This document shows, piece after piece, positions 2,791-56,767 of a DNA stretch of 64,000 bases. Where the stretch lies: NCBI RefSeq assembly GCF_009914755.1, contig NC_060928.1; one strand, given 5' to 3'. Position numbers and translations under genes: made by a program. The number at the start of each line of letters is the position of its first letter. Positions within the stretch are counted from its first letter, which is position 1. The DNA is from the human T2T-CHM13v2.0 reference genome, Homo sapiens. The notes under the pieces are model-generated. The model was given only the letters and a program-made list of their open reading frames with translations, did not search any database and had not been told where the DNA came from.

Positions 2791-2928
2791 TATTTCTCAT
2801 TTTTGATGAGACCAGTTATCTGCTGGAAAATAATGAAAAGAGGTATGGAAGAAGGGGGTACTGAAGAGACTCGTGCATTTAGACATGAGACTTTTGTGTT
2901 GTTCTTTTGACTGAAAAGAAAAATTTGG

Positions 2929-3504
2929 GAGCAGATTGCTACTGCAGGCTCCAGGAGGCAGCTGAAAAACTGTGAGTGCCTAAAGTGTGAAAGGGGGATC
3001 ATCTACTCCTGAATACACACCCTCAGTGGGGAACCTGAAGATTGAGATCACAGGAGATGGATTTGACCTTACGTGGACCTGAGATGAATTTAGAGAGCTG
3101 GGCAAAATATAGAGGTAGAGGAAGCAGCGAGAAGGACCTTGTGGGCACTCTAGACCTCCAGGGAAGCCATTTCTTACTTTATCTCACAGGAGTCCTTGGG
3201 GAGGGCTGCCACTGGAATTGGGGAAAGACTAAATGCAAAGTTTCCTGGACAGAACCTGGGGGAGAAGGTGAGCTGGGAGTGTAGACATGAGCATAAAAGC
3301 CATGGCAGGCAGGGAGTTGCAAAATCTGAAAGTACTGCTTGTCTTCTCAGTGGGGAGGCTTGTAGCCTGGGGCAAGTTCTCAGCCCTGCTCACCTCTGCC
3401 TGGAAATAAACTTGGTGCTGTTGGGGGGACACGCTGTGGTAAGACCAGCCTTTTGGGCTGCACGGGAGCTGGGTGAGGCCTGTAACTGCCAGCTTTCTCT
3501 CCAC
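2929..3504 (+). mobile_element. L1PB-type (L1PBa-like) 5'UTR fragment
   Basis: Matches the recalled L1PBa 5'UTR (GGGGAACCTGAAG..GATTTGACCTTAC..TTTAGAGAGC..GGTAGAGGAAGCAGCG..GGGGAGGGCTGCC..GGGTGAGGCCTGT); preceded by AAAAATTTGG at 2919-2928. Confidence 0.75.
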
Positions 3505-4884
3505 AAATTCTTAGTGGTTCTTGTTATATTGTACCACCTTTCCAGCAGCCCACTCTCACCCTTCCATTCCAGAAAGAAAAGGAAAATGTAGGATGGAGTA
3601 TCTACTAATAGTTTGATAAAAAGGAAAAGTGGGATTTAGTGAGTATCTAGTCTGGGGTGGCAGATGTTCTGGGACATTTGGAAGCCGCATGCAAAGATAT
3701 TTTTCAGAGACATTCAGGCACTGAATCCATTTTCTATGCCAGCTAGCATTGCTAATTCTGAGTTAGGTTCATGATGCAGGGGAATCTGATATACTTAAAC
3801 AATTCCTTAAACAGAAGCACATAGATTATTCATGTTAATAATGAGATGTAAGCTTAAGTAGAAAAGAGCAGGCAAGTAGCAAGAATTCACCATCTCTCCC
3901 AATCTTAGCAAGATCCTAACTGTACAGGAATGAAACAAGTATATAGAATCCAGAGCAAGAGAAAAACTTTATTAAAAATATTCTACCTGTTTCTGCTCTA
4001 GAAAGAGAGAGAGAGAAAAAAGTGTGTATGTGTGGTGGGAGTGTGTGCACGTGTGTTGGTCTCTCCTTGTCAGTTCATAACCCAACCTGCTACACTGCAC
4101 ATAACACCTATTTAGCTATAAACTGGCTGATGTTTTTGTGGGCAAGTCTCCATGTTTTGTGCCCATCCTGCAAAACTCGTAGGAAATACAATTTTACCAT
4201 TTATGGATGGGTATTCAAAATGCAGATAGATTCTTATTTCCAGAAGAAAACGTGATTATATTATCCAATTAATTATGATATGAATTCAATCAATTCATTA
4301 ATTCCACAGGTGCAGAATTCCTCACCTCCACTTTATCCTGAGGGCTAGGATGAAGTAAAGCAAACACTGGAATAGCTGAGCTCAGATTTCTCTGACCCGA
4401 CAGGGTTATGACAAGAGCCACATGACTAAATTACCCTGTGTCTAAATCCCCTATACACTGTGCAATTTAAACAGAAAATAGCCAACAGATCATAATAACC
4501 ATATTCACAGATGATAAGAAAATATAATGTCTGCAACACAAAGTCTCTAGCACATGTAGTCATTTTAACTATTATGAGAAATAGCATATTGTATTTTGGG
4601 TTTAAAATAGAGCTTGTGAAAAGGGTACATATTACATTTATTTAAATCTGTGGCAGTAGAGTTAAATACTGTTGGTTTTGTGGTTACTTTTATAAGCATT
4701 TGTATAAAATGACCCTTTCTGAATTTTTAACATAACAGGAATTGAAAGGGTGTGATACAAAGTAATAATGGAAAGGAAAAACTTTGTATGGAACAAAATC
4801 TGCTGTAAGGGGAAAAGGGGAACTTGCTGAATCAAAAGAGATGAAAAGCAATGATGAACAGAAAGGAAATGAGTTAGATTATGT

Positions 4885-5062
4885 TGTTAAGCTATGCACC
4901 AGATACTGAACTCAGTGCCTTCTAAGTTATTTCATTTAACCCTACAAAATGCTGTGATTTGGGTATTATTATCCACATTTGCACAGACGAGGAAATGGAT
5001 TCAAAGAGCTGAGGTCACTTGTCCAAGTTCACACAGTAAGTGGCAGACAAGTTTTGAACCCA
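4885..5062 (-). mobile_element. MIR SINE
   Basis: Antisense MIR core: TATTATTATCCACATTT..ACAGA.GAGGAAA..GGTCACTTGTCCAAG.TCACACAG. Confidence 0.75.
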
Positions 5063-7572
5063 TATTTTTACATGCCTTTTACAAAGCATACTTGACTTAG
5101 TCTAGCATATTGGGAATTTGAGGGCCATTCCTGCTGTAAGTGAATTTCCTCCTTCATCCTCTCCATTGCTTCAAATTGTTTCATGGTGCATCTCAAGAAC
5201 CACACCCTTGATGAACATTTATTTGATGTTCCCAGGCTCCAGTTCCCTCTTCCTTTTATGAATTCCTGCAGCAATCATTTACTCCATCAGTTACACATCC
5301 TACATCATATGGTACCTGATTGACTAGTCAACATTTATACATGATTTATCTTCTTGATAAAATTATGCACCTGAGAGCAGAAACCATATCTTAAAAATCT
5401 TTGGATTCCTCATTGTATAGGAGGGCAAAATCAATTTCTTCTTACCTACCAAGTTGATTGCTGCCCAGGTTGCTATTTTGACAAACTAGTAAAGCCTGTT
5501 TCTTGTCTGAGTGAGAAACAACCCTTTGAGTGGTTAGCCATGGTACTGTGAGTGCCAGCATGGGATGAGAATAACATAGGACAGAGGAGCAGCAGAAAAT
5601 AAGAGCACTCTCACATGCATTGATGGAGTTATGCGTGTACGTATTGCCATAGTATTTCAAACAGTACTTTGTATATTTTAGGTTTATATCTTTAATGAAA
5701 CTAATGCAGATAAAGATAAATAATTTGTCTAAAGTTTACAATAAAATCATAAGCCATTAATTGATTTCTTTTGATTCAGGTTAAACATGCAGAGGAAATT
5801 AAGCTTTTTCATTTGTCCCAACAAACTCCTGTCCTCAAATAATCTCTGTGTTTTCCACTCTAGTGAGTAATGGGAAAAATTAATTAACTGTCTAGTCCAG
5901 ATTAAAGCTTAGTCCAATCTATGTAGGGTTCATTTTCTCTTGATAAAAATGTTCAGTGTCTCTAATATTTTCCTGTTCCCTCTAACTTCTTTAAGGAGTC
6001 TGCATGAATAGAGAAGTGTAGAGTGTATGGCACAAATTTCCTTGTGGGCCTGGCTATCCTCATGCCATTGGTGGAAATAACTTCATGCTAATCCTCAGAT
6101 ATGTGCAACCTGTTGTCCACTATTCTACAAGACAATGGCTTTTGTGGACCTGCTCTCTGTGAGCTCTGCTGACCTCCTTTGCTGCAGTTTAGAGCCAGTA
6201 ATTCATGATTCAGGTTTGATTCTAGAGGCAATCATAGGGAGTATCAGCCCATAGGGAGTATCAGCCATCTCATCGCTACCAGTTCAGCCTGCTTTCAGCT
6301 CTTGCTGGCTGCAGACTCCTGAGTCTGAGTCCTCTTCCACCTGGCCCCTCATTGACATGTCTACTTCCGCATGTGCTGTTGGGATCCCCTTGCCCTTTGC
6401 AATGTCTCCTGACTTTTAGCTCAGAAAATGTAAATTTCAAGGTATTCATCTGAGAAATAGTCCACCACCAACATTAATGTGGGTAGTCTTCTCCCAAAGA
6501 CCCAAACAAATACTACATGCAGAGCCCTATCCTTAGTGACCCCCCTAAATTCATGCCCCCCAAGTTTAACCCTGACCAAAGCCCCAAAAAGAAATGGGGA
6601 CACAGGTATCTAAGTGTTCTGGTATTTTTTTTTCTCTCTCTACTCCTCTTCATGCAAATCCCAGGGCCAGCCTTTTGGGGGAGAGGGCCTGTCTTAGAAG
6701 GGGTCTCTTCTTTACACTGTTGGGGAAAACTATATAGAGAGTCCTTAAAAACTAGCTTTACTATTATGCTAAAGAAGGGAATAAGGGAATTTCAGCAGCC
6801 ATCTTTCAGGGCTATGGTAAGATCTGTAAGACTAATGTATGACACAATTTTCTTTTCATGTCAGAAGCTGAATATTACTGTGTCTTTCTCCTTGTATTCT
6901 ACACTATGAGCTCCTAATATAGTCCCAGGTAATGTTTACCTTTTGGGAACTAGTGCAGATGTCTTATACTCAAAAAGGCAAAATGGAAAAGCACAATAAT
7001 AATTTTCAAACTGTATACCTATTATACATCAATGCCAGGAATATATAAAATTATTTGTGGTTGGTATACTCTGTTGATTAGAGGCCAAAGTCAATAGTCT
7101 GACACCCTAAAGGGCCAGTTTGTTTCAGTAATTTATGTTTACAGGCTAAACTCTAACTTCAAGCAATTGTTCTATAATTGCTTATTATAGTTATAAAAGG
7201 AAATAGACAAAATTGTGTGGGTGAGTAACACAAATTTTCATCGTGATTCAAAATCATGATTCTGAAATACATGCACTCATGGTGTTCATCATCAGTGTTA
7301 TCTTTATAATATTTGATGGAACCAAATTAAATGTTGAAATTCTGAGCCAATAAAATAAAATAGCAATATTCATTTTTTATGGCATACTGGCCTTAGTTAT
7401 CCTCTCCATTGCTAACTTAAGCCTACTGCTAAAATTACATAAAATTTTGCTGCATATATTCAAATAAATTAGGAGTTTTTTTCTGGTTTTAATTCATGTA
7501 CTATTTTTGAGGATGGAAAAAACAGTGATTAAATAAGCCTAACTAGATTTTTTTTAATGAGGCAAAAGCACT

Positions 7573-7750
7573 TTCACCATTTTGTAAATAATATTTATAA
7601 ATTTTTATTATATTATTTATTATATCATAATATATTATAAATATAAATATTATAAATAATATTTTTTATATTATTTATAATTATAATAATATTTATAAAT
7701 AATATTAATAAAATTCACCATTTTGTAAATATTATTTGTAAATAATATTT
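7573..7750. repeat. AT-only low-complexity tract bracketed by an 18-bp direct repeat
   Basis: TTCACCATTTTGTAAATA at 7573 and 7714, with nearly pure A/T between them. Confidence 0.8.
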
Positions 7751-8039
7751 GGATTGTTAGAAAAACAAATAGCTCTTAAGGGATCCTAGTCATGTTCCTA
7801 AGTCTTGTCACTTGACCAACGTGGTTTCGGATTCAGTGACTATCCAGTTGATGAATGGATGTTTATTTATGGCTTCTTTCAAATAAGATGGCACATATTG
7901 CCCCTCAATTAGAAAAAACACCCAGTGCTTTATTCATTCATGCAGTGTTTTATTCACTCTATCCAAAGAGTGCAGGATCAGACACTGTGCCTAACTCAAT
8001 TGGTTTTAAACAACAACAAAATGTAGGGCACTGAAATTC

Positions 8040-9820
8040 TACCTCTGATTATAATAAAGAACTTACCCTCTCACAGTAAAAACAAAAGAAACAGAAAAAG
8101 GAACAAAATATATTTTAAAACTATGATCAGATATTAGACAACAGGTGACATAGGATGCTGATCCCTAAAGAAAGGGAAACAAATAAGGTGGTTCCTACAG
8201 TCTTCCCAACTTTCTACTGAAGGATCTATCCAGGCCATGGTGCAGGGAGGGGATCCAAAACACAGCATGAATGTCTTGCTGGGTTAAGAAGACAAAGATC
8301 TGAGTGCAGTGAAGCTAGGTGGCTGGGATTTGAAGGGCAAAGTTCTAGAAAAAAAAAAGCATTCAAGAGAAAAAGCTATAGAAATACACATAGGGGCCTT
8401 ATTCACTCTTTCGCTTAATGCAAATTCACAATACAAAGGGTAGAACTCCACAAGCCTGGGCAAATAAACTGGGAGCTGAAATCTGAACAAGAGTTCACAT
8501 GGGGCTAGGAGACATTTGAGTTTTGAGTAGCCAAAAAGCAGAGTCCTCATTGAACACCCGAGCATTCAGCTGAAACTCCAGAAGGGATGTGCCATAAGAG
8601 TAGATCTTAACTAGGCATACATTAAAGGCTACTCCTGCTTAACTAGGCATACGTTAAAGCCAGAATTAATACAGTAATAAAATCTTCACTATTTGGATAA
8701 TGGGTACACTAGAAGTCCAATCCCCACCAGTATGCAATATACCCAAGTAGCATGTACGTGTACCCCCGCATCCAAAATAAAATAAAAAGAATACAATAAC
8801 AAAACCAAAACCAGACAATATAAAAATGAAAACTTCAGATTATCTCTTATAAACATAGATAAAAATATCTTTTTAAAATATATGCATATAAAACTGTAAT
8901 AATAAAAACAATAAAATCATGACTAAGAGGTTAATTCCAGAAACGTAAGGTTGTGTTAGCACTGGTAAATCAATTGTTGTAATTCAGTATATTAGCATGA
9001 AAAAAATATACACTGTAAAACAGGCAAACGTGAGTGACCAACAAGCATCTGAAAATATGATCAATATAATTTACTGTCAGAGAAATGCAAATTAAAAGCC
9101 CAATAAACTATCACTATATATTAGAATGATAAGCATTAAAAATATTGATAACTGCAAATATCATAAAGACTATAGAACAACTGGAAGCCTCACCAATTGC
9201 TGGAAGTATAAAATGGTACAACTACTTTAGAAAACAATTCACAGCTTCTTAAAAAAAATTAAACACCAGCACCAGATGATTTAGCAATTTCACTTCTACG
9301 TTTTCACCCAAGAAAAATGAAACCATGTGTGTACAAAGAAGTATACATGCACATACACAGTATCTTTATTTAAAAGAGTAAATTTGAAATAACCCAATTA
9401 CCCAAAAGTAGGTAAACGGGTAAACAAATTCTGGTATATCCATAAAGTGAAATACTAGCTAACACTAAGTAGGGACAAACTATTGTCATATGACATAGAT
9501 GAATCTCAGAAACATTATGCTGAGTGAAAAAGCTACACAGGAAAAAGTATGCATTCTATGATTCCATTGAAAGGGGATTCTATAAAAATTTAATCCAATT
9601 TGTAGTGATTATTTCTTAGTGGTTGCCAAGAGCCGAAGGTAGGAGTGTGATTGAAAAGAAACATGAAAGGATGCTTTAGGGTGATATAAATGTTTATATC
9701 TAAATTGATTTTGGTGGTGGTTACACAAATATATACATTTTAAACTCGCCCAACTATGAACTTAAAATGAGTGCATTTTATTGTGCATGTAATTATGCCT
9801 TGAAAAACTTGATTAAAAAA
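8040..9820 (+). mobile_element. Composite old L1M (L1MC/MD/ME-like) fragments
   Basis: GAAATGCAAATTAAAA, AAAATGGTACAACTACTTT and CATTATGCTGAGTGAAAAA-type L1M ORF2-end/3'UTR motifs ending in an A-rich tail. Confidence 0.65.
8683..8790 (+). mobile_element. Short L1 3' end (L1PB/old L1PA-like) nested in the L1M
   Basis: ATGGGTACACTAGAAGTCCAATCCCCACCAGTATGCAATATACCC..TGTACCCC..AAAATAAAATAAAAA. Confidence 0.6.
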
Positions 9821-11174
9821 AGGAGGAAAAAAAGGAATTCACGAATTACCTTGCCTTTTGCATTTTTCTAAGTCATATTCTACATCCAAATCATGAGACA
9901 GTTACTCAACCTTCAATATGACACCCTGACAGTCTATAGTTAATGGATGTCTACACGTGGCACTATTATCCTAAAAAGGTAATTTCTTTAAATCTTTGCT
10001 CTATAAACTCTAGCTATTCACGTGACATCTTCCAAAAGGATCACCATCTTCTAGATTGCTTTGGAACTGCTTTAAAATGATGACATAGGGATCATCAAAT
10101 GGGAGAGGCAGATCAGAAAAGATCTAAGTCTTAGCTATGTGCTCTATTGCACAACAATGGAGAAAAAATTACTTAGGGTACAATCAAGGACAGTGATTTG
10201 CCATAAGTAAAATTCAGAAAAATGGAGACAGAATGAAAACATAACAAGTCTAATTCCCTACTCTTGAAATCAACCGAAACATAACTGCATCTTGGCAAAG
10301 AAGTCTGTGGGATTCTTCTTGACCATGGATTGCTAGAACTAAATGATACAAGCAGAAGTCTCAGGTTTTTAGTACAACAGTCAGTAAGAAGGAGATGAAT
10401 CATCGTGTTTCTTGGGTTACTGTTTTAAAAGATTTGACAAAGGTAGATAAATAGTACTTTCTCTTTCAAGGGGGGAATAAAACCCGAATGTTTTAAAGTT
10501 TAAAAAAGTAGATAATTTTCTTTGAATCTATCTGAGCTTTTTTATTCAACATTAGTCTTTAAGTCAGAAAACTAGCAAAATCATTTTTCTTAGTATTGAG
10601 AGGAGGAAAAAAATAAATATTTGAAAATGGGTAAAAATGAACTCAAGTGATCTTTTTAAAAGGCAGTCTATCATTCTTTCTGGCAATTTACATACGAAAA
10701 ATACTTTACAAACATGGGTACCTTTATGGCTGAGATACATTATAGGGAAAATACCAATTAATTCTCTACATCTAGAGTTTTTTTTTTCCTAAAACTTAAA
10801 TTCTTATGTGATAAAAAACAAACAAACAAAACTTCTGTGGCATTCCCACTGCCTAAAGACAAGTTCCAAATTCCTTGGTATAGCAAAACATGTCCATTTG
10901 TACTCTCACCCCATCCTACCTTACCAGACACAATTTCTATTACACCCCTAGACTCTCCTGCCCTAAAATCTAAACCAATCCTCATTTCACAAATAGCCAG
11001 TATTTTTTGTTCCCCCTATTGTTTGGACATGTCCTTCCCTCTGTTCCTGACAAATGTCATTCTGTCAGGCCCAGCCCAATTACATCTCCCCTGTAACACC
11101 TGGACTTGGTCATCTGTGCTTTCAGAAGACCTAGTATATAGAGCTCTTTTGCAGTATGTATCTCAACACACTAA

Positions 11175-11534
<360 letters not shown>

Positions 11535-12594
11535 TAATTCTTGTTAGCTTGTTTCTTAGTTATTACATTTCCCATTCCTTGTAGGATCATTGTGAATAGT
11601 AGAAACACAATAAATGCCTACTGAATTGAATTTTATTGGTCTTCAGTTTGTATTTGCTTTGTTTTGCGTGTGGTAAAATTCTTTTGGTTTTGTTTCTTTT
11701 TCTTTTTTCTTTCTGATATCACTTATTCTTCTTGAGTGCAGTGTTCTAATAAAATATGCTTGATTCCTGGTGGAGTTATTTAGAGCTTCTGAGGAGAAAA
11801 AAAATTCTTTGTTTGCAAAGTAGTAATAGAAAGCTTAGATCATTACTGCTGTTGGAAAACTCAAAGTACATGAACTTCTGAGAGACAGTCAATATAATTT
11901 AAAGCATATTACATAAAAAATGCTAAGTGCACAAGGTATCCAATAGCTTTTCATTATGCTTCAGACTTGCAGCACCATCTTCCCCCCAGATTCTATCTAT
12001 ATCTTTTTGAAAGATTATATTGATATTTTTATTGTTGATCAAAATAATTATAAATTCCAAAACCCTGAAATGGAAATCACTACTCTAGAAATTCAAGACA
12101 GGATTTTATTTCAGAACTTCTTAAATCTACTTTTCACATTGTTATTGGATTGATTAGGATTCATTTTCTGAGATTAGTTCTCTATATATAAATCAAATAA
12201 CCAAGTCAATTTAGTTACTTGATTTAGCCATATCATCAGTTGAAAAATAATCAAATTAGATATTGTCACTGTAAAATATCATTGTCCCCAAACATACTCA
12301 CTAGACATTAAATTATTCTTTAAGTTTCAACTACATAAGCTGATGCCTCTAGGCCAAACCGAAAGCATCAGCACAGCACATGGAATCCTTCTGTGTCTGT
12401 TTCTTCCGACATGTAATGATGAGACCTGGAGAGGAACTTTATCCCAGAGGACATAACTTGGTGATAAAGAGCAAAGTTGTAATACAAAGTCACACTTGGC
12501 AATTTATATACAAAGCTAGAGAAAAAGTCTTTCCAATAGCACATGGAAGCCCAGATCACCACACTCAAGGCTGAGATTCTCATGATTCTCTTTC

Positions 12595-12830
12595 ATTTTA
12601 ACAAATGCCTATATGGTAGTAACTACAGGAAATACTCCAAGTGATTTACAAGTATTAATTCATCTGCTTCTCATACCAAAACCTGAGAAAGAGAGATTAT
12701 TAGTTTTATTTTATTGATGGATGCAAGGCTAAGTTAGTTGCCCGAAGATTTGCAGGTAGTAAGTGACTGAACTAGGATTGGAATGAGAGCAGTCTGGCTC
12801 CATTGTCTTTGGTCCTAGCCTCTTTTCAAC
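12595..12830 (-). mobile_element. MIR SINE
   Basis: Degenerate antisense MIR (..AGTAAGTGACTGAACTAGGATTGGAA..AGCAGTCTGGCTCCA). Confidence 0.65.
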
Positions 12831-13820
12831 ACTGCCTCTCCCATGGTTCCCAGAATTCTGGGAGCAAGTTTAAGATATCTTGAGGGCTTTTTCCACACTT
12901 CCCATGAGTGAGGAGAATTAGGTACCACTAAGACTGTATACCCAAGATTTGGTGAGGAAGTCCCACCATTGATGCTGCGAGGTTGCTACATCATCATGCA
13001 AGTATCTCTATTTAAGTTAGAGTATATATTCAGCCCTACCAATTTCTGGTACATAAGAGTAACTTATAAGATTACAGTGATAATTACAATCCTATGAAAT
13101 TGACCCAAATACAATTGATTCTTTAAATTCCATTTCTAAGAATGTAGATGTGTCTTTTCTTAGTAATTTCTTAATCATTTTAAATTCACAGGTGTTTGAG
13201 CTATCACTGACCTCTACTTCTGACTTCAAATGACCTTTCTCCTTTTGAATATTAACACATACATTATTTAAAAACAATCTATGTGCCTTACATGTATTAT
13301 TTAATTTCAAAGAGTAGTTAGGAGATAAAATGTTCCTTAACTGCCACCTGTCCTAAAAATCAGCTTAGGTTGCAGCCTTAAGCAGTTCACACATGTCTGA
13401 AATATGTAAATAGGTTTAATACAATAGAAGTGGAGCTGTGAGTGGATGAGAGAAGACTTGAGCTCCATTTGATGGGGCTGGTCTTCACAAATGTAATCAG
13501 GAGTTTTTGTCTGAGTCTGGAAACTGAACTGTCCATATCTATAGGGAGATTTGTGAAGACGCATGCCTTGCAACTTGTCTCTAACCTGGGTATTCAGACA
13601 TTTCTAAAAATAGGTAAACTCAATTTAGGCGACAAATTGCTGTTGCTAGTCTTTAAATTCCAAAAAAGGACTTCAGTGAACCAATAAGTGTCTCAGATCT
13701 GGGGTGAGGGATTTAGGGTTTGGTTTCTGGGGGTCATCAGAAAGAGCAGGGCCTTTAGGAGAAAGCATATTCCTGACTCCTGTAACTTCACCTTGACTCA
13801 GAAATTGGTGGAAACACATG

Positions 13821-14083: not shown

Positions 14084-14195
14084 ACATGTAAATACATCTA
14101 TGTTCTCTCAATTATTAAGAAGGGCCAAAAAGGAAGATTTGACTGAGGCCTAAAAATTATTTCCAAGAATAATTATCTAAAATGGTGTTATTTGT

Positions 14196-16993: not shown

Positions 16994-17301
<308 letters not shown>

Positions 17302-17674: not shown

Positions 17675-18619
17675 TTTTTTTCTTTTTTTTAATTATTATT
17701 ATACTTTAAGTTTTAGGGTACATGTGCACAATGTGCAGGTTTGTTACATATGTATACATGTGCCATGTTGGTGTGCTGCACCCATTAACTCGTCATTTAG
17801 CATTAGGTATATCTCCTAATTCTATCCCTCCCCCCTCCCCCCACCCCACAACTGTCCCCGGTGTGTGATGTTCCCCTTCCTGTGTCCATGTGTTCTCATT
17901 GTTCAACTCCCATCTATGAGTGAGAACATGCGGTGTTTGATTTTTTGTCCTTGCGATAGTTTGCTAAGAATGATGGTTTCCGGCTTCATCCATGTCCCTA
18001 TGAAGGACATGAACTCATCTTTTTTTGGCTGCATAGTATTCCATGGTGTATATGTGCCACATTTTCTTAATCCAGTCTATCATTGTTGGACATTTGGGTT
18101 AGTTCCAAGTCTTTGCTGTTGTGAATAGTGCCGCAATAAACGTATATGTGCATGTGTCTTTATAGCAGCATGATTTATAATCCTTTGGGTATGTACCCAG
18201 TAATGGGATGGCCGGGTCAAATGGTATTTCTAGTTCTAGATCCCTGAGGAATCACCACACCGACTTCCACAATGGTTGAACTAGTTTACAGTCCCACCAA
18301 TAGTGTAAAAGTGTTCCTATTTCTCCACTTCCTCTCCAGCACCTGTTGTTTCTTGACTTTTTAATGATCGCCATTCTAACTGGTGTGAGATGGTATTTCA
18401 TTGTGGTTTTGATTTACATTTCTCTGATGGCCTGTGATGATGAGCATTTTTTCATGTGTTTTTTGGCTGCATAAATGTCTTCTTTTGAGAAGTGTCTGTT
18501 CGTATCCTTTGCCCACTTTTTGATGGGGTGGTTTGTTTTTTTCTTGTAAATTTGTTTGAGTTCATTGTAGATTCTGGATATTAGCCCTTTGTCAGATGAG
18601 TAGGTTGCAAAAATTTTCT
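17675..18619 (-). mobile_element. 5'-truncated young L1PA (about L1PA3-5), 3' ~0.94 kb
   Basis: High-identity antisense L1 3'UTR and ORF2 C-terminus; T-tract at 17675; no TSD visible. Confidence 0.95.
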
Positions 18620-19287
18620 GATTGTCATGACAACTCTAGGGCACTGGACCATTCAGGAGGAGGAACTTTCACTCCAGAACAGTGAAAGGCAAACAGGTCT
18701 TTGCCTCTTAGGATCTCTGGCTTCCTCTCACCCCCTTCAATATGTCAATTAAGTTCAGATAAACTTGATAAAACTGAAGCTAAGGCAGGCCATTATTAGT
18801 TTGTCTTGCCAGCCTGGGAAAGTTAGCGTCTCTGAGAATTAAGAGCAATGTGTTGGTAGGCACTGAAGGTATCAGATGTGTGACTTCATTAACTACAAGT
18901 TACACATAGCTAGAAATCAAACTCTGGAAAGCAGGAGGACTCATTCAAAGTTAAATCACTTTTCACTCTGACTCTACGCAACTATTTGGATAAATATGCA
19001 TGTATACATATTAGAGCAATTGGGAAATATTTTGAAGCATCCCGCAGCTTCCGTTATTTCTTCCATCCAACCTTGCCGTGAACTGTAATACTATTGTGTG
19101 ATCATGTGCATATGTTGAAATTAAGAGTTAAGAGCAACTCATGCTGGTTTACCAATTCCAAAAAAAAAGTTCATTTAAAAAACTATTTTAGGGTCTACTA
19201 TGTAGACAACACTGCATATAAGCAAGGAGACAGTAAAAAGACATATGAACCATGGTTCACATTCACATGGTGGGATAGATAACCAAA

Positions 19288-21995
19288 TTTTTTTATTATT
19301 ATTATTATTATTTATGCAATAGGTTTTTGGAGAACTAGTGGTGTTTGGTTACATGAATAAGTTCTTTAGTGATGATTTCTGAGAGTTTGGTGCTCCCATC
19401 ACTCAAGCAGGGTACACTGTACCAGATGTGTAGTCTTTTAATTCTCACTGCACCCCCCCACCCCCCACCACCATTTCTCCCCAGGCCCCAAAGTCCTTTG
19501 TGTCATTCTTGTGCCTTTGTGTCCACATAGTTTAGCTCCCACTTATGAGTGAGAACATACAATGTTGGTTTTCTATTCCTGAGTTACTTCAGTTAGAATA
19601 ATGATTTTCAAATTTATCCAGCATGCTGCGAATGCCATTATTTCCTTCCTTTTTATGGCTGAGTAGTATTCCATGATATACATATACCACAATATCTTTA
19701 TCCATTCATGGATTGATGGGCACTGGGGCTGGTTCCATATTTTTGCAATTGCAACTTGTGCTGCTATAAACATGCATGTGAAGGTATCTTTTTTGTATAA
19801 TTACTTCTTTTCCTTTGGGTAGATACCTAGCAGTGGAATTGCTGGATCAAATTGTAGATCATTTTTAGTTCTTTAAGGAATCTCCACACTGTTTTCCATA
19901 GTGGTTTTACTAGTTTACATTCCTACCAGCAGTGTCAAAGTGTTCCCTTTTCACCGCATCCATGCCAACATCTATTATTTTTTGATTCTTTGATTACGGC
20001 CATTCTTGGAGGAGGAAGGTGGTATCACATTGTGGTTTTCATTTGCATTTCCCTGATCATTAGTGATGTTGAGCATTTTTTCATGTTTGCTGGCCATTTG
20101 TATGTCTTCTTTTGAGAAATGTCTATTCATGTCCTTAGTTCACTTTTTTATGGCATGATTTGTTTTTTTTTTTTTTTTCTTGCTGATTTGTTTGAGTTCC
20201 TTGTAGATTCTGGATGTTAGTCCTTTGTCAGATGTACAGATTGCAAAGATTTTCTCCCACTCTGTGGGTTGTCTGTTTACTCTGCTGATTATTTCTTTTG
20301 CTGTGCAGAACTTTTTTCATTTAATTAAGTCCTATCTATTTATCTTTGTTTCTGTTGTATTTGCTTGTGAGTTCTTGGTCATGAAGTCTTTGCCTAAGCC
20401 AATCTCTAGAAGGTTTTTTCCAATGTTATCTTCTGAATTTTTATGGTTTCAGGCCTTGAATTTAAGTCCTTGATCCATCTTGAGTTGATTTTTGTATAAG
20501 GTGAGAGATGAGGATCCAGTTACCTTCTCCTACATGTGGCTTGCCAATGATCCCAGCACTATTTGTTGAATAGGGTCTCCTTTCCCCACTTTATGTTTTG
20601 GTTTGCTTTGTTGAAGATCAGTTGGCTGTAAGTATTTGGCTTTATTTCTGGGTGCTCTATTCTCTTCCATTGGTCTGTGTGCCAATTTTTATGCCAATAC
20701 CATGCTGTTTTGGTGACTGTGGCATTGTAGTATAACTTGAAGTTGGGTAATGTGATGCCTTCAGATTAATTCTTTTTGCTTAGTATTGCTTTGGCTATGT
20801 GGGCTGTTTTTTGGTTCCATATGAACTTTAGGATTTTTTTTTCTCATTCTGTGAAGAATGATGGTGGTATTTTTATGGGAATTTCAGTGAATTTGTAGAT
20901 TGCTTTTGGCAGTATGGTCATTTTCACAATACAGATCCTACTTATCCATGAGCATGGGATTTGTTTCCATTTGTTTGTGTCATCTATGATTTCTTTCAGC
21001 AGTGTTTTGTAGTTTTCCTTGTAGAGGTCTTTCACCTCCTTGGTTAGGTATATTTCTAAGTATTTTATTTTATTTTTGAAGCTATTGTAAAAGGGGTTGA
21101 GTTCTTGATTTGATTCTCAAGTTGGTCGCTGTTAATGTATAGCAGAGCAACTAATTTGTGTACATTAATTTTGTATCCTGAAACTTTGCTGAATTCATGT
21201 ACCAATTCTAGGAACTTTTTGATGAGTTTTAAGGGTTTTCTAGGTATACAATCATATCATCAGCAAACAGTGACAGTTTGACTTCCTTTATGTCAATTTG
21301 GATGCCATTTTTTCTCTTGTCTGATTGCTCTGGGTAGGACTTCCAGTTCTATGCTGAATAGATGTGGTGAGAGTGGACATCCTTGTCTTGTCCCATTTCT
21401 CAGTGAGAATGCTTTCAACTTTCACCATTCAGTATAATGTTGGCTGTGGGTTTGTCATAAATGATTCTAATTACCTTCAGATATGTCCCTTCTATGCCAA
21501 TTTTGCTGAGGGTTTTAGTCATAAAGTGTTGCTGGATTTTGTCAAATGCTTTTTCTGCATCTATTGAGATGATCATATGATTTTTGTTTTTAATTCTTTT
21601 TTATGTGGTGTGTCATATTTATTGACTTGCCTATGTGTTAAACCATCCCTACAACTCTGGTATGAAACCCACTTGATCATGGTGGATTATCTTTTTGATA
21701 TGTTGTTGGATTTGGTTAACTAGTATTTTGTTAAGAAATTTTGAATCTATGCTCATCAGGGATATTTGTCTGTAGTTTTCTTTTTTCATTATGTCCTTTC
21801 CTGGTTTTAATATTTGGTTGATATGGGCTTCATAGAATGATTTAGGGAGGGTTCTCTCTTTCTCTATCTTGTGGAATAGTGTCAATAGGATAGATACCAA
21901 TTCTTCTTTGAATGTCTGGTAGAATTCAGCTGTGAATCCATCTGGTCCTGGCTGAGCTTTTTTTGTTGTTGTTGTTTGTTGATTTGTTTTTGCCT
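19288..21995 (-). mobile_element. L1PB1-like LINE-1, 3' part (3'UTR and ORF2 RT/C-terminal region)
   Basis: L1PB-type 3' end (AATAGGTTTTTGG..GGTTACATGAATAAGTTCTTTAGTG); ORF2 peptides [16 protein letters not shown].., [18 protein letters not shown].. Confidence 0.9.
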
Positions 21996-22038
21996 GGCAA
22001 TGTTTTCTTTTTTTTCTTTTTTCTTTTTTTTTTTTTTT

Positions 22039-22366
22039 GTGCAGTTGCAAGATTTAGTAGAGTGAAAACAGAGCTCTCATTAAACGGGAGGGGACCCAAA
22101 GGGGGGTTGCCGTTGCTGACTTGAATGCCTGGGTTTATATCCCGATTATTGTCCCTCCCCCTGTGCTCTCAGTCGATAGATGATTGGCTATTTCTTTACC
22201 TCCTGTTTTTGCCTAATTAGTATTTTAGTGAGCTCTCTTTACTACTTGATTGGTCGGATGTGAGCTAAGTTGCAAGCCCCGTGTTTAAAGGTGGATGCGG
22301 TCACCTTCCCAGCTAGGCTTAGGGATTCTTAGTTGGCCTAGGAAACCCAGCTAGTCCTGTCTCTCA
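22039..22366 (-). promoter_or_regulatory. 3' LTR17 U3-R (CCAAT boxes, TATA), preceded by a polypurine tract at 22367-22380
   Basis: Minus strand begins TGAGAGACAGGACTAGCTGG; GATATAAACCC TATA at 22131-22141; ends CTTGCAACTGCAC-polyA. Confidence 0.9.
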
Positions 22367-22424
22367 GTCCCCCTCCTCAACAGGAAAACCCAAGTGCTGT
22401 TGGAGAGGTTGGCTGACAACTGCT

Positions 22425-22687
22425 CTAACTGCTTCCTGCTGAATTGGGGTGTAGTAGGGGTTGTGCAGTTGAGATTTCCTTGAGAGGGGTGCCTTCGATG
22501 TCATCAACATTGGAGCATAGGCTAGCAGGCTGGTCCAGGGGTCCGTGGTAGATCTTAGTCATGGACTGCATCTGGGGCTCCATTTGAAGAATGATTTGTA
22601 CTTTTACAGCTTTGATTCTGGAAGAGACAAACTTAACAAGGAGGTTAAAGATACAGGGATTGAAATGTATGGCCTATAGTGCAGGGG
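22425..22687 (-). pseudogene. env: HERV-W env remnant: 36-nt SU island plus TM cytoplasmic tail
   Basis: Translates PLHYRPYISIPV, then PCIFNLLVKFVSSRIKAVKVQIILQMEPQMQSMTKIY...PLLHPNSAGSS*, homologous to the syncytin-1/HERV-W Env C-terminus. Confidence 0.9.
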
Positions 22688-22924
22688 ATTATTTCTTTGG
22701 CACACTTCACAGACCCTAACTATCTGCTTGATAGTTTTGAAAAGGCTTGGTCCAGTAAATAATAATTTGGCCATCTGATGGGTGCTATCAATGCCTAACT
22801 GAAAGGTTTGGTGAAGGGTTTTAAGTAATTTCCATTGGTTAGCTGCAGGCAAAAGTATTTTTTCTTCTTCGGTGGCTAGCCATCCTGAGGGGAGGAAACT
22901 GTCCTCATGAGGTTCCTTATTCAA
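22688..22924 (-). pseudogene. pol: HERV-W pol: integrase N-terminal zinc-binding region (truncated)
   Basis: ORF 22604..22924: LLKTLHQTFQLG...CEVCQRNNPL (degenerate HHCC); no catalytic core. Confidence 0.85.
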
Positions 22925-23069
22925 TTTCTCCTGCTGAGTACTGGGGCTTGGTTTCCCAGAGGGGATTACCCCATACTAGGGGTCCTTCTATAAGCATTTC
23001 TAATGGACGGTCCTGCCTTGCCGTTCTTCTGGCTTCAATATCCACTTGGCAGTTCTCTTCTATTTCCCT

Positions 23070-23930
23070 TTACTTTCCTTTCTGATGACCCTGGCAGTGT
23101 AAGACTGCCACCTCTTTAGGTTTCTGTACAGCCAATAATAATCTCCTAATGGCTTCCTGATGTTTGATAGGTGTTCCCTCGGAAGTTAGGAATTCCCTTT
23201 CTCTCCATGTTGCTGCATGGGCATGGAGGACAAGGTAAGCATTCTTAGAGTCTGTATATATATTTACCCTTTTTCCTTCTCCTAATTCTAGTGCCTGAGT
23301 GAGGGCTATTAGTTCTGTCAGTGGAGCACTAGTTCCTGGAGTGAGGGGATAACTTTCAAGTATTCCATTATCACTGACCACTGCATACCCTGCTTTTCGA
23401 AGTCCTTTTTCTACAAAGGAACTGCCATCAGTATACAAGTTGAGGTTGGGATCAGTCAAGGGAACCTCTAGAAGGTCCCCTTGAGTGGAGTAGGTTTGAG
23501 CAATCACCTGTTGACAGTTATGTTCTATCTTTTCTTCATTGTCTGGAAGAAATGTGTCTGGGTTAAGAGTTGCACAAGTGCACAGACACAGCACTGGCCC
23601 TTCAAGTAATAGAGCCTGATATTTAAGCAAATGGTTTTCTGACAGCCACAAGTCTCCTTTAGCAGTGAGTATGTCGTTTACATCATGAGATGTCCACACA
23701 GTAAGATCTCTTCCCTGTATTATTTTAACTGCTTCAGATACTAAGACTGCTACTGCCGTCACTACCCATAAACAATGAGGCCAACCCTTTGCCACTACAT
23801 CAATTTCCTTACTCAGGTATGCCACGGGTTGCAAGCTGGTCCCTTTGACCTGTGTAAGTACTCCTAGAGCTATTCCTGTTTTTTCTGTGACATATAGAGA
23901 AAAGTCTTGCCCCATTGGCAGGCTTAACAC
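23070..23930 (-). pseudogene. pol: HERV-W pol: RT connection plus RNase H open stretch (286 aa)
   Basis: QPVAYLSKEID, LYTDGSSF, ELIALTQALE, NIYTDSKNAY and VAVLHCQGHQKG motifs of gammaretroviral RNase H; bounded by a frameshift and a premature stop. Confidence 0.9.
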
Positions 23931-23954
23931 TGGGACGTGGGTTAGGGCCTTCTT

Positions 23955-24497
23955 TTAGGCCTGGAAAGCCACTTCTGCTTCAGGTGTACATCTTACTAAA
24001 TGGGTATTGGCTTTCTGAGTTTCCTTAATTAGTATATATAGTGGCCTGGCTATTTTGCCATACCTGGGAATCCATATTCGGCAGAAGCCTATTATGCCAA
24101 GGAATGCTCTTAGTTGTTTTAGGGTTTCTAAGTTTTGCTCTGGGCCTAAGGCAGACTTTTGAAGGTTTTTTTCTAATGTCTGCAGCTGACTGATAAACTT
24201 ATCCTTTAAGATTAGTTGGCCTTCAATAGAGTCAGGTGACAGAGAGGTATGTTTCCTCAATGTCTCCCTTAGTCTCTCCAGAAAGGCAGTAGGATTTTCT
24301 TCCTTTCCTTTTGTTATAGTGGACATCATTGAATAATTTATAGGCTTCTTCCTAGTTTTCCTTAGTCCTTCTAGCATGCAAGTTAGTAAATGTCTGTGGC
24401 ACCAATCTCCATGTTCTGATTCTGTGTCCCAGTGAGGGTCTACACTGGGAACTGCCTGCTGGCCTGTGGGGAATTGTTCGCTTTCCTCTGTTGTCAT
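23955..24497 (-). pseudogene. gag: HERV-W Gag capsid C-terminal part fused in frame to the RT thumb
   Basis: KEENPTAFLERLRETLRKHT (major homology region) ...GPEQNLETL|KQLRAFLGIIGFCRIWIPRY (RT). Confidence 0.9.
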
Positions 24498-24501
24498 CCT
24501 G

Positions 24502-24806
24502 TCATTGACCTGACTGAGATACCAGAGATCGCCAAACTCTTGGGGCTGCAGTTATGGTGGCACTTCTCTCATTTGGGGTTAGTGTCTGATCTAGCAGTAA
24601 CATTCTATCTCTCCATGTCAGATCAAAGGATTGTCCTAACCCTTGTAAAACATCAATATAGCCATCAGGGTTATCTGAGTATTTACCTAGGTCTATTTTA
24701 ATTTGCTTCAAGTCTGACAGGAAAAAAAGTACATACACTCTGACTGGGCCAAATTCTCCAGAATACATCTTAGGGGCATTTTTGCCTTGGGGGGAATGTT
24801 TCCCAT
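24502..24806 (-). pseudogene. gag: HERV-W gag 5' remnant (ATG at 24806-24804, matrix largely deleted)
   Basis: MGNIPPKAKMPLRCILEN joined to GEFGPVRV..LSDLKQIKIDLGKYSDNPDGYIDVLQGLGQSFDLTWRD. Confidence 0.85.
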
Positions 24807-24816
24807 CGCTTTGGAG

Positions 24817-24834
24817 GTCCCTTTGTGGTTGTCA
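24817..24834 (-). other. Degenerate HERV-W primer-binding site
   Basis: TGACAACCACAAAGGGAC, 3 nt after the U5 end (..GGTAACA); tRNA identity cannot be resolved by eye. Confidence 0.7.
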
Positions 24835-24837
24835 AAA

Positions 24838-25304
24838 TGTTACCAGGAGGTCCTTGTTCTTAGAGCTCCCAAGAGGGTGGCGGGCTGCTTCCAAGATGTC
24901 AGCAAGCCTCTTGTTCTCTGACCTGAGGTTCTTGGCCTCATGGATTCCAAGAAATGGAATCTTGGGCTATGCAGTGAGTGTTATAGCTCTATTCAGCTTG
25001 ATTAGGATGAACCTCGGGCACTTAGCCCAAGCAGGAACAATGGCGAGCCTCTAGCCTGATTGGGAGCAGCAATGGGCACTGCCTCGCTGGATCAGAAGTG
25101 CAGCAGACACCCTGCCAGATCCGGAGGGGTGGAAGTCAGTGGCAGAACTGTGATGGTGGCAAACAGCAGTGGTAGACGACGAGCGAAAGCTCAGCTCGAG
25201 CCATAACAAACACGGACCAGAAGAGTGTGCAGTTGCAAGATTTAATAGAGTGAAAACAGAGCTCCCATAAAATGGAGGGGACCCAAAGGGGGTTGCCCTT
25301 ACCG
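24838..25304 (-). mobile_element. 5' LTR17 R-U5 (no U3)
   Basis: GGCAACCCCCTTTGGGTCCCCTCC..CTATTAAATCTTGCAACTGCAC..GGCTCGAGCTGAGC..CATCTTGGAAGC..GGTAACA; R repeated at 22039-22120. Confidence 0.9.
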
Positions 25305-28284
25305 GGCAATTTTTTCAATTACCATTTCAATATCATTGCATGTTATTGGTCTGTTAAGAGTTTCTATTTCTTCCTGATTTAATCCGGGAAGTTTGTGTAT
25401 TTCCAGGAATTTATCCTTCTCCTCTAGGCTTTCTAGTTTATGCATGTAAGGGTGTTCATAGTAGCCTTCAATAATCTTTTGTATTTCTGTGGCATCGGTT
25501 GTAAAATCTCCCATTTCCAGTTGAGCTTATTTGGATCTCTCTTCTTGTCTCACTAATGTTCTATCAATTTTATTTATCTTTTCAAACAACCAGGTTTTCG
25601 TTTCATTTATTGTTTGTGTTTTTTGTTGTTGTTTCAATTTCATTTAATTCTGCTTTGATCTTGGTTATTTCCTTTCTTTTGCTGGGTTAGGGTTTGGTTT
25701 GTTCTCGTTTCTCTAGTTCCTTGAGGTGTGACCTTAGATTGTCTATTTGTGCCCTTTCGTACTTTTTGACATCGGCATTTAAGGCTATAAATTTTCCTCT
25801 TAGCATCACCTTTGCTGTATCCCAGAGGTTTTGACAGGTTGTGTCACTATTATCATTCAGTTCAAATAATTTTTAAATTTCCATCTTGATGTCATTACTG
25901 ACCCAATGATTATTCAGGAGCAGCTTATTTAATTTCCATGTATTTGCATGGTTTTCAGGTTTCCTTTTGGAGTTAATTTCAGATATTATTCCACAGTGGT
26001 CTGAAAGAATACTTGATATTATTTTGATTTACTTAAATTTATTGAGACTTATTTTGTGACCTATTATATGGGCTATCTTGGAAAATGTTGCATGTGCTAA
26101 AGAATAGAATGCATATTCTACAGTAGAATTGGGTAGAATGTTCTATAAATATCTGTTAAGTCCATTTGTTCTAGGGTATAGTTTAAGTCTATTGTTTCTT
26201 TGTTGACTTTCTGTCTTGACCTATCTAGTGTTGTCAGTGGCATGTTAAAGTCCCCCACTATTACTGTGTTGCCATCTATCTCATTCCTTAGGTCTAGTAG
26301 TAATTGTTTCACAAATTTGGGACCTCCAGTGATAGGTAACTATATATTTAGAATTGTGATATTTTCCTGTTGGACTAGTCCTTTTATCATTATATAATAT
26401 CCCTCTTTGTCTTTTTTAACTGCTGTTGCTTTAAAGTTTGTTTGGTCTAAAATAAGAATAGCTACTTCTCCTTGCTTTTGGTGTCCATTTTCATGGAATA
26501 TCTTCTTTCATCCTTTTACCTTAGGTTTACCTGAGTTCTTATGTGTTAGGTGAGTCTCTTGAGGACAGAAGATGGTTGGTGAATTATTATCCATTCTGCC
26601 ATTCTGCATTTTTAAATTGAGTATTTAGGCCATTTAATACATTCAATATTAGTATTGAGTTGTGAGGTGCAGTTCTATTCGTTGTGCTGTTTGTTGCCTG
26701 AATACCTTGTTTTTGTTTTCATTGTGTTATTTTTATAGGTCCTGTGAGATTTACACTTTAAGAAGATTCTATTTTGGTGTATTTTGAAGATTTGTTTCCA
26801 TATTTAGAGCTCCTTTTAGTGGTCCCTGTAGTGCTGTCTTGGTAATGGCAAATTCTCTCAGCATTTGTTTGTCTGAAAAAGGCTGTATCTTTCCTTCACT
26901 TATGAGGCTTAGTTTCACTGAATACAAAATTCTTGGCTGATAATTATTTTGTTTAAGGAGGATAATGATAGGACCCCAATCCCTTCTAGCTTGTAGGGTT
27001 TCTGCTGATAAATCTGCTGTTAATCTGATAGGTTTCCCTCTTTATAGGTTACCTGATGCTTTCACCTCACAGCTCTTAAGAGTCTCTCCTTCATCTTGAC
27101 TTTTGATAACCTGATGACTATGTGCCTAGGCAATGATCTTTCCACAGTGATTTTTTCAGGTGTTCTTTGAGCTTCTTTTATTTGGATATCTAGATCTCTA
27201 GCAAGGCCATGGAAGTCTTCCTCGATGATTCCCTCAAATATGTTTTCCAAACTTTTAGATTTCTATTCTTCCCCAGGAACACAAATTGTTCTTAGGTTTG
27301 GTTGTTTAAAATAATCCCAAACTTCTTTGAGATCTTATTCATTTTTTAAAATTATTTTTTTCTTTGTCTTTGTTGGAGTGGGTTAATTTGGAAGCCTTGT
27401 CTTTGAGCTCTGAAGTTCTTTCTTCTACTTGTTTGATTCTATTCTGAGAATTTCCTGTGTATTTTGCATTTATCTAAGTGTGTCCTTCAACACAATTTCC
27501 AGAAGTTGTGTTTGTTTTTTTATTTATGCTATCTATTTCTCTGGAGATTTTTCCATCCATATCCCGTCACATTTTTAAATTTCTTTAAGTTGGTGTTCAC
27601 TTTTCTCTGGTGCCTCCTTGAGTAGCTTAATCATTCATCTTCTGAATTTTCTCACAATTCAGAGATTTCTTCTTGGTTTGGATCCATTGTTGGTGAGCTT
27701 GTGCGATCTTTGGGGGTTTTAAAGAATATTGTTTTGTCATATTACCAGAATTGTTTTTCTGATTCCTTCTCATTTGGGTAGACTGTGTCAGAGGGAAGAT
27801 CTGGGATTCAAGAGCTGCTGTTTAGATCCTTTGGTCCCATGGGGTGCTCCCTTATGTGGTGCCCTCCCCTTTACCCTCAGGGATGGGGTTTCCTGAGAGC
27901 CAGAGTGCTGTAATTGTTATTTCTCTTCTGGATCTAGCCACCCAGCAAATCTTCCGGGCTTCAGGCTGGTACTGTGGAGTGTCTGCAAAGAGTCCTGTGA
28001 TGTGATCCGTCTTCAAGTCTCTCAGCCATGGGTACCAGCACCTACTCTGGTGGAAGTAGCAGGGGAGTGAAATGGACTCTATGAGGGTCCTTGGTTGTAT
28101 GTTTGTTTAGTGTGCTAGTTTTGTGTTTGTTGGTCTCCAGCCAGGAGATGGCACTTTCAAGACGTCACCAGCTACAGTATTAGGGAGGATACAACCTAGC
28201 CATAGGGTCCCCTGGGTAAGTATTAGGGTTTCTTAAGAAGTAGACAGGGCCACAGAACTCGCAAGAGATTATGTCCTTTGTCTT
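25305..28284 (-). mobile_element. L1PB1-like LINE-1, 5' part (EN domain, ORF1, partial 5'UTR)
   Basis: Continues ORF2 colinearly across the HERV-W insertion (TTDATEIQKII..; VIVGDFNMPLTTLDRS; ORF1 MENIFEGIIEEDF..); ends abruptly inside the 5'UTR at 28284. Confidence 0.9.

Positions 28285-49939: not shown

Positions 49940-51810
<1,871 letters not shown>

Positions 51811-56435: not shown

Positions 56436-56767
<332 letters not shown>

What the first reader, a model, noticed from the sequence alone, without database searches (positions are those of the whole stretch)
2919..28284. One L1PB split into two oppositely oriented pieces sharing a TSD: footprint of a ~24.8-kb inversion (breakpoints ~3504 and ~28284)
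Seen: a lone L1PB-type 5'UTR piece on + (2929-3504) is preceded by AAAAATTTGG (2919-2928). The large L1PB on - (19288-28284) ends abruptly inside its 5'UTR, and beside its tail lies CCAAATTTTT (19283-19292), the exact reverse complement of that 10-mer (11/12 if extended). Established: L1 insertions are bounded by A-rich-starting TSDs and truncate from the 5' end, so a free 5'UTR piece without a body is abnormal. From my recalled L1PBa consensus, the + piece ends roughly 0.2 kb upstream of where the - body begins, so the pieces are colinear and non-overlapping. Inference: flipping 3505-28284 restores TSD-5'UTR-ORF1-ORF2-polyA-TSD. This would be a non-homologous inversion, with a small deletion, that postdates the L1PB insertion and could be lineage-specific or polymorphic. 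The TSD is short and A/T-rich, so chance is not excluded.
Basis: partly seen in the sequence, partly recalled or inferred. Interest (0 to 1): 0.8.

Follow-up and report, generated by a model that had tools for sequence, protein, structure and literature searches.

The report
Old L1 split by 25-kb inversion
One ancient L1 retrotransposon in a gene desert on human chromosome 4 now lies in two oppositely oriented pieces that still carry matching insertion scars, which marks an old, apparently fixed inversion of about 25 kb: a real but ordinary kind of rearrangement.

Summary
Window 2927/2929-3504 (+) is a 5'UTR piece of an old primate L1 family. Window 28284-19288 (-) is the rest of an L1, interrupted by a 3.3-kb retroviral retrocopy at 21969-25304. 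Of 49 other genomic copies examined, 44 carry both parts, always on one strand and in the same order. In the 17 copies that match both parts end to end, the gap between them is 189 bp (median). So the two window pieces are colinear, do not overlap and lack about 189 bp. Both are equally diverged relative to other copies. The 10-mer AAAAATTTGG (2919-2928) and its reverse complement (19283-19292) each occur once in the window, at the expected junctions (chance about 1e-4 to 3e-3). Neither piece has a target-site duplication of its own. Flipping 3505-28284 restores one insertion. The timing is open. A later two-break non-homologous inversion is my leading reading (about 0.55). An inversion made during L1 integration is a serious rival (about 0.35), because the distal break lies at an L1-endonuclease-like TTT|AA site in the required orientation (p about 0.015). 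No outgroup genome could be examined. One 41-genome inversion table lists nothing here. The name L1PB was not tested. Interest is modest.

The parts
2919..2928 (+). 5' copy of the target-site duplication AAAAATTTGG. The last GG (2927-2928) may also be read as L1 sequence (microhomology).
   Evidence: BLAST homology to other copies starts at 2927 in 5 of 9 loci.
2929..3504 (+). L1 5'UTR piece, roughly positions 156-781 of a 6.5-kb full-length copy (L015).
3504..3505 (.). Inversion junction 1: L1 position about 781 joined to the reverse complement of the distal end of the host segment. No microhomology or filler is evident.
3505..19282 (.). 15,778 bp of host DNA, inverted relative to the state at or before the L1 insertion. 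Its first 796 bp are unique in the genome.
   Evidence: Geometry. Uniqueness.
19283..19292 (-). 3' copy of the target-site duplication (CCAAATTTTT on the + strand). It overlaps the poly-A tail by 5 nt.
19288..21968 (-). L1 3' part: poly-A (T7 at 19288-19294), 3'UTR and the distal part of ORF2 (RVT_1 at 21649-22053). About positions 3926-6505 of copy L015.
21969..25304 (-). Foreign insert inside L1 ORF2: a gammaretrovirus-like retrocopy with Gag_p30, RNase H and integrase zinc-domain matches. It carries a 67-nt terminal direct repeat and a poly-A tract. It is a passenger of the inversion, not part of its mechanism.
25305..28284 (-). L1 5' part of the body: the remainder of the 5'UTR, ORF1 (dsRBD at 26769-27041) and the proximal part of ORF2. 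About positions 969-3926 of copy L015.
28284..28285 (.). Inversion junction 2: L1 position about 969 (antisense) joined to unique host DNA.

Best explanation
One slightly 5'-truncated L1, about 6.35 kb long, inserted by target-primed reverse transcription at the site AAAAATTTGG. Its poly-A end faced what is now 19282 and downward. Later two double-strand breaks occurred, one inside the L1 5'UTR and one about 15.8 kb beyond the L1's 3' end in unique DNA. The 24.8-kb segment between them (now 3505-28284) was rejoined in reverse by non-homologous end joining, and about 189 bp of the 5'UTR were lost.

Shown: the two pieces come from one family variant, are colinear and non-overlapping, are equally diverged, and have inverted matching TSDs. 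There is no homology at the breakpoints.

Inferred: the order of events (insertion first, inversion later) and the repair pathway.

The broader claim is that both pieces come from one retrotransposition event and that the DNA between them is inverted. I hold that at about 0.9.
For: - Colinearity: 49 copies were examined and 44 carry both parts, all on one strand with A upstream of B. In the 17 copies matching both parts end to end the gap has median 189 bp, IQR 188-190 and range 173-217. Searches show the same for 9 and 7 loci.
- Element coordinates: 156-774/781 for the + piece and 969-6505 for the - piece.
- Divergence: the + piece is 78.8% identical to 17 copies, against 80.4% copy-to-copy. 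The - piece is 82.0%, against 83.2%. Ranks are 14 of 17 and 15 of 17.
- TSD: unique in the window, with chance about 3e-5 to 3.5e-3.
- No own TSDs.
- Breakpoint flanks are unique in the genome, and no L1 lies on the outer sides.
- No other 5'UTR fragment and no copy of the missing 189 bp is in the window.
Against: - No outgroup or pre-inversion allele was seen, so neither the inversion nor its timing is observed directly.
- The distal junction cannot be cross-checked, because no repeat bridges it.
- The distal break reads ATTT|AA, matching 5 of 6 positions of the L1 endonuclease consensus as I recall it, in the orientation a TPRT primer would need. The per-site chance is 0.015. This is unexpected for a random later break and favours the integration-coupled rival.
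- Similarity to individual copies is not correlated between the two pieces (Spearman -0.22, p 0.40, n 17). That test adds no support for a shared sub-lineage. It is also uninformative for a star-like family.
Confidence: 0.55

Rival explanations
1. The inversion was made by the L1 insertion itself, in one step. L1 endonuclease cut the bottom strand at the AAAAATTTGG site and the top strand 15.8 kb away at a TTT|AA site. Both 3'-OH ends therefore belonged to the intervening host segment, and both primed reverse transcription on one L1 RNA. The proximal end primed at the poly-A and copied to about position 969. The distal end primed internally at about position 781 and copied to about 156, as in twin priming. 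The segment, carrying a cDNA tail at each end, was then religated in reverse. On this reading only 15.8 kb of host DNA (3505-19282) was inverted. The 189-nt gap is RNA that neither cDNA copied.
For: - The end of the host segment that abuts the antisense L1 piece ends in ATTT-3' and is followed in the reconstructed site by AA. This matches 5 of 6 positions of the recalled consensus TTTT/AA in the required orientation. The chance is 0.015 per site, and 0.0032 for exact TTTAA.
- A poly-A is present only at the primary junction.
- GG microhomology lies at the 5' junction.
- The two pieces are complementary with a small gap, as in twin-primed insertions.
- Passages of bioRxiv 10.1101/2024.12.14.628481 report L1-induced genomic inversions in cell models and cancers. 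They also report a case with two cDNA pieces of one mRNA, 12 nt apart, at two separate breakpoints, read there as twin priming.
Against: - There is no complementarity between the T-rich primer end and the L1 sequence just 3' of position 781 in other copies.
- There is no duplication at the distal site, whereas staggered endonuclease cuts usually leave one.
- The endonuclease-like motif was noticed after looking at several junction features, so its p-value is optimistic.
- I know of no fixed germline example, so the prior is low and poorly known.
Confidence: 0.35
2. Two unrelated L1 fragments lie near each other and the 10-mer match is chance. The - element would be an ordinary 5'-truncated insertion, and the + piece the remnant of another copy that lost its body by deletion.
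For: The TSD is short and A/T-rich, and five of its ten bases are hidden in the poly-A tail.
Against: - The 5'UTR segment has about one first-look candidate per 1.8 Mb (1705 in 3.117 Gb).
- A second copy would have to lie within 25 kb, be inverted, end 189 bp before the other begins, and carry the matching anchored TSD.
- The - body would also have to lack its own TSD.
- My rough product of these chances is below 1e-6.
Confidence: 0.03
3. A more complex history produced the present order by coincidence. Examples are several nested rearrangements, or an inverted transposition or duplication of the 5'UTR piece with its flank.
For: Nothing specific. Old loci often carry several events, and only one genome was examined.
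Against: - A single inversion explains all four junctions.
- No duplicated host DNA was found at the breakpoints.
- The 20-nt imperfect direct repeat at 3505-3524 and 28305-28323 is weak (p about 0.011).
Confidence: 0.05

Closest known systems
Simple two-break, non-homologous (NHEJ-type) chromosomal inversion revealed by a transposable element split into inverted halves
   Same: A formerly contiguous element lies in two opposite orientations at the two breakpoints. There are no inverted repeats at the breakpoints, there is a small loss at a junction, and the TSDs are now in inverted orientation.
   Different: The ancestral arrangement was not seen here. The distal break has an L1-endonuclease-like sequence, which a random break would show only about 1.5% of the time.
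Twin priming (5' inversion within L1 insertions; Ostertag and Kazazian 2001, recalled, paper not held)
   Same: A 5' L1 segment is inverted relative to the 3' segment. The two are colinear with a small gap, and there is one pair of TSDs.
   Different: In twin priming the two segments abut inside one TSD pair. Here 15.8 kb of host DNA lies between them, the 5' piece lies beyond the poly-A side, and the TSD copies are inverted.
L1 retrotransposition-mediated rearrangements in cell models and cancers (bioRxiv 10.1101/2024.12.14.628481, passages read; 10.1101/2025.09.17.676864, passages read)
   Same: L1 cDNA lies at both junctions of an inverted host segment, a poly-A lies at one junction only, and there is TSD-like overlap and an endonuclease-like motif.
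   Different: Those events are somatic or experimental. This one would be an old, fixed germline event, and simultaneity cannot be shown from one genome.
Inversions by recombination between inverted L1 or Alu copies (Lee et al. 2008, recalled, not read here)
   Same: A retrotransposon sits at an inversion breakpoint.
   Different: That mechanism needs homologous inverted copies at both breakpoints and leaves chimeric full elements. Here the outer sides of both breakpoints are unique DNA.

Membership tests
LINE-1 insertion made by target-primed reverse transcription | L1 ORF1 and ORF2 domains in order on one strand | tested here: met
   Tnp_22_dsRBD at 26769-27041(-) with E 1.6e-26, and RVT_1 at 21649-22053(-) with E 8.7e-8. 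About 81-83% identical to 7 long genomic copies over 5.6 kb.
LINE-1 insertion made by target-primed reverse transcription | Poly-A tail at the 3' end followed by a target-site duplication that recurs at the 5' end | tested here: met
   A7 tail (T7 at 19288-19294) followed by TTTGG. The 10-nt match to 2919-2928 is in inverted orientation, and its chance is 3e-5 to 3.5e-3.
LINE-1 insertion made by target-primed reverse transcription | Endonuclease-type target (TTTT/AA on the nicked strand; consensus recalled) | tested here: inconclusive
   The primary site reads TTTT|CT, matching 4 of 6. The TSD start is ambiguous within the A run.
L1PB / L1PBa subfamily | Best match to that subfamily's consensus and diagnostic positions (RepeatMasker/Dfam) | not testable with these tools
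   No repeat library is available here. Shown only: an old family with about 17-20% copy-to-copy divergence and at least three 5'UTR structural variants.
Simple non-homologous two-break inversion | Two parts of one formerly contiguous sequence lie at the two breakpoints in opposite orientation, colinear and non-overlapping | tested here: met
   189-bp gap, and same strand in all 44 copies that carry both parts.
Simple non-homologous two-break inversion | No inverted homologous repeats at the breakpoints | tested here: met
   3505-4300 and 28285-29080 each match only themselves in the genome, apart from one 60-nt hit at E 2.8e-5.
Simple non-homologous two-break inversion | Uninverted arrangement present in an outgroup or another haplotype | not testable with these tools
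   No primate genome is held (one search states there are no relatives). Supplements of the ape, macaque and multi-primate papers were unreadable.
Twin-primed L1 (5' inversion) | Inverted 5' segment directly abuts the 3' segment inside one direct TSD pair | tested here: not met
   15,778 bp of host DNA separates them, and the TSD copies are inverted.
NAHR inversion between inverted L1 copies | Homologous L1 sequence on both sides of both breakpoints | tested here: not met
L1 integration-coupled inversion | Second break at an endonuclease-like site, oriented so that its 3'-OH abuts antisense L1 cDNA | tested here: met
   ATTT|AA matches 5 of 6 in the required orientation, with null 0.0147 per site. 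This assumes no loss at the distal site.
L1 integration-coupled inversion | Insertion and inversion have the same age (no species with the L1 uninverted) | not testable with these tools
   No outgroup genomes are available.

The most novel reading that the evidence does not exclude
This locus is a fixed germline example, tens of millions of years old, of an inversion made by L1 retrotransposition itself. Two endonuclease cuts 15.8 kb apart would have let both ends of the intervening host DNA prime on one L1 RNA ('distal twin priming'), and the segment was then religated in reverse. So far this mechanism is documented in cell models and tumours.
Probability: 0.35. Interest if true: 0.55.

Novelty: new member of a known kind. 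Interest (0 to 1): 0.3.

Why it matters
This is a clean example of an old inversion read from one genome alone. The split L1 gives both breakpoints to the base, the size of the loss, and an upper age limit of roughly 40-50 Myr. That figure is my crude estimate and a recalled neutral rate. The locus is a gene desert about 116 kb upstream of ARHGAP24 with no annotated element, so a functional effect is unlikely. It has two uses. It could serve as a phylogenetic marker if lineage-specific. It could also be a test case for whether L1 integration has produced fixed germline inversions, which a primate alignment would settle.

Tried and rejected
- Repeat-bridge test of the distal junction. The flanks 3505-4300 and 28285-29080 are unique, so no element spans the reconstructed junction and the test gave nothing.
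- Overlap of the top-hit lists of the two pieces. 3 of 39 non-self hits are shared, against about 0.8 expected by my estimate. This is weakly supportive only.
- Correlation of similarity across copies. No signal (Spearman -0.22, p 0.40, n 17), and uninformative for a star-like family.
- First TSD simulation. It had a logic error and is discarded. One search replaces it.
- Hairpin at the reconstructed distal site. The minimum free energy is -6.7 kcal/mol against a null of -4.1 +/- 2.3 (P 0.13), and the fold does not span the break. Rejected.
- A 20-nt imperfect direct repeat at 3505-3524 and 28305-28323 (p about 0.011). Left unexplained and probably chance.
- Literature.
  - The T2T inversion-polymorphism tables have 31 chr4 rows, none starting 8865-8870 (T2T coordinates) or 8532-8536 (my estimate of GRCh38 coordinates).
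  - The gibbon inversion supplements have no such number in the 3 files searched, and one file was not searched.
  - The supplements of the ape, multi-primate and macaque papers could not be read and may bear on the age.
- The twin-priming paper is not held, so its junction statistics are recalled only.
Full report
**What is in the sequence**

The 10-mer AAAAATTTGG lies at 2919-2928, directly before a stretch that begins GAGCAGATTGC. Its reverse complement lies at 19283-19292. There it overlaps a T7 run (19288-19294), which is followed by the (ATT)n-rich end of an L1 read on the minus strand. Each 10-mer occurs once in the 64-kb window. Extended to 12 nt they match 11/12 (read).

**The plus-strand piece**

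Window 2929-3504 is repetitive in the window's own genome. There were 1705 first-look candidates, and 39 non-self matches were scored at 70-77% identity. Nearly all span query positions 2-15 to 541-576.

In 8 of 9 fetched copies the homology continues about 150 bp further upstream. The window copy is therefore slightly 5'-truncated. One other copy (L005) starts at almost the same place. BLAST homology begins at 2927 in 5 of 9 copies. The last GG of the 10-mer can therefore also be read as L1 sequence, that is, as junction microhomology. Homology ends at 3504.

**The minus-strand piece**

The same copies match the reverse complement of the window from exactly 28284 downward. Against seven long copies, the body runs 28284-25305 and resumes at 21968-19300 at the same element coordinate. 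The 3336 bp between those two stretches is a foreign insert.

Pfam places the L1 ORF1 dsRBD domain at 26769-27041(-) and RVT_1 at 21649-22053(-). In the coordinates of one 6505-bp copy (L015) the plus piece is 156-774/781 and the minus piece is 969-6505.

**Colinearity, the key test**

I examined 49 other copies: 9 loci, 20 more from the hit list of the plus piece, and 20 from the hit list of the minus piece.

- 44 carry both parts, 4 carry only the first part and 1 carries only the second.
- In all 44 the two parts are on one strand, with the first upstream of the second.
- In the 17 copies that match both parts end to end, the gap has median 189 bp, IQR 188-190 and range 173-217.

The missing stretch is nowhere else in the window, and no other 5'UTR fragment of this family is present.

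**Same variant and same age**

The family has structural variants.

- 11-12 copies differ from the window in the first about 95 nt of the second part.
- 13 copies share only the last about 170 nt of the first part.
- The 17 full matches combine both window types, so one element of that variant explains both pieces.

Among these 17 copies, copy-to-copy identity is 80.4% in the first region and 83.2% in the second. The window pieces score 78.8% and 82.0%, and rank 14 of 17 and 15 of 17. So their relative divergence is equal.

Two weaker tests gave little. Similarity to individual copies is not correlated between the pieces (Spearman -0.22, p 0.40). The top-hit lists share 3 of 39 non-self hits.

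From about 17-18% pairwise divergence and a recalled neutral rate of about 2.2e-9 per site per year, I estimate an age of roughly 40-50 Myr. This is crude. The name L1PB could not be tested.

**The TSD against chance**

I used every position of both strands of the window as a mock 5' junction. An anchored match of at least 10 nt to the poly-A/flank string occurs at 27 of 127,800 positions with no slack and 47 of 127,800 with +/-2 nt slack. About 22 and 26 of these are the 3' site matching itself, and 1 and 5 are the real site. That leaves about 3e-5 to 1.3e-4. If the GG belongs to the L1, the 8-nt match has chance about 1e-3 to 3.5e-3.

The minus body has no TSD of its own (best 2-3 nt). The plus piece has none downstream (best common string 6 nt).

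**Geometry**

Flipping 3505-28284 gives TSD, L1 156-781, a 189-bp gap, L1 969-6505 with poly-A, TSD, and then 15,778 bp of host DNA continuing into 28285 onward. Both outer sides of the breakpoints are unique DNA. This excludes recombination between inverted repeats. It also leaves no repeat with which to cross-check the distal junction.

Ordinary twin priming does not fit. The two L1 segments do not abut, and the TSD copies are inverted.

**When did it happen?**

Two readings give the same footprint.

(a) Insertion first, then a two-break inversion with end joining and a 189-bp loss.

(b) The inversion was made during integration. The host end that now abuts the antisense 5'UTR piece ends in ATTT-3'. 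In the reconstructed site it is followed by AA. This matches 5 of 6 positions of the recalled L1 endonuclease consensus, in the orientation that would leave a 3'-OH able to prime cDNA. The per-site background is 0.0147, and 0.0032 for exact TTTAA.

Passages of bioRxiv 10.1101/2024.12.14.628481 describe L1-induced inversions of genomic DNA. They also describe two cDNA pieces of one mRNA at separate breakpoints, interpreted there as twin priming.

Against (b):
- The primer end has no complementarity to the L1 sequence after position 781.
- There is no duplication at the distal site.
- The motif was noticed post hoc.
- The germline prior is unknown.

I put (a) at 0.55, (b) at 0.35, chance at 0.03 and more complex histories at 0.05.

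**Known or not?**

- The table of inversions genotyped against T2T-CHM13 in 41 genomes has 31 chr4 rows. None starts 8865-8870 (T2T coordinates) or 8532-8536 (my estimate of GRCh38 coordinates). There is therefore no sign of polymorphism in that call set.
- The gibbon inversion supplements show no such number in the 3 files searched, and one file was not searched.
- The supplements of the ape, multi-primate and macaque studies could not be read and may bear on the age.
- I found no description of this inversion in searches, but these do not cover supplementary catalogues.

**Verdict**

The kind of event is known, and the locus has no annotated function. Its interest lies in being a base-resolved old inversion and in the open possibility that L1 integration itself made it.

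Noticed in passing
window 21969-25304 (-): A 3.3-kb gammaretrovirus-like insert lies inside the L1 ORF2, with Gag_p30, RNase H, RT_RNaseH and Integrase_H2C2 matches. It has a 67-nt direct repeat at its two ends (22038-22104 and 25226-25292, 85% identical), an A-rich poly-A tract about 40 nt long on its own strand (about 22000-22037), and similar short L1-derived strings at both borders. Together these look like an L1-mobilised processed retrocopy of an endogenous retrovirus transcript (R...R-polyA) rather than a provirus with LTRs. The family was not named.
   Followed up: partly
window 3505-3524 and 28305-28323: A 20-nt imperfect direct repeat (16 of 20 with one gap) begins exactly at the left breakpoint and 20 nt outside the right one. 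P is about 0.011 against random 40-mers. In the reconstructed state it would be an inverted repeat around the distal break, but the predicted fold does not use it.
   Followed up: yes
loci L002-L060: The L1 family has at least three 5'UTR structural variants. One has a different first about 400 nt. One differs by about 140 nt around the region deleted in the window. Several copies (for example L005) start at the same internal position as the window copy, which suggests a preferred 5' end.
   Followed up: partly
window 17895-18619 (-), 41695-41897 (+), 49942-51593 (+): Older L1 3' fragments, 69-75% identical to the reference copies, unrelated to the split element. Alu-sized repeats of about 290 nt lie at 11176-11445, 15573-15846, 16984-17300 and 56436-56724. 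They were seen only through an insert in reference copy L018.
   Followed up: no
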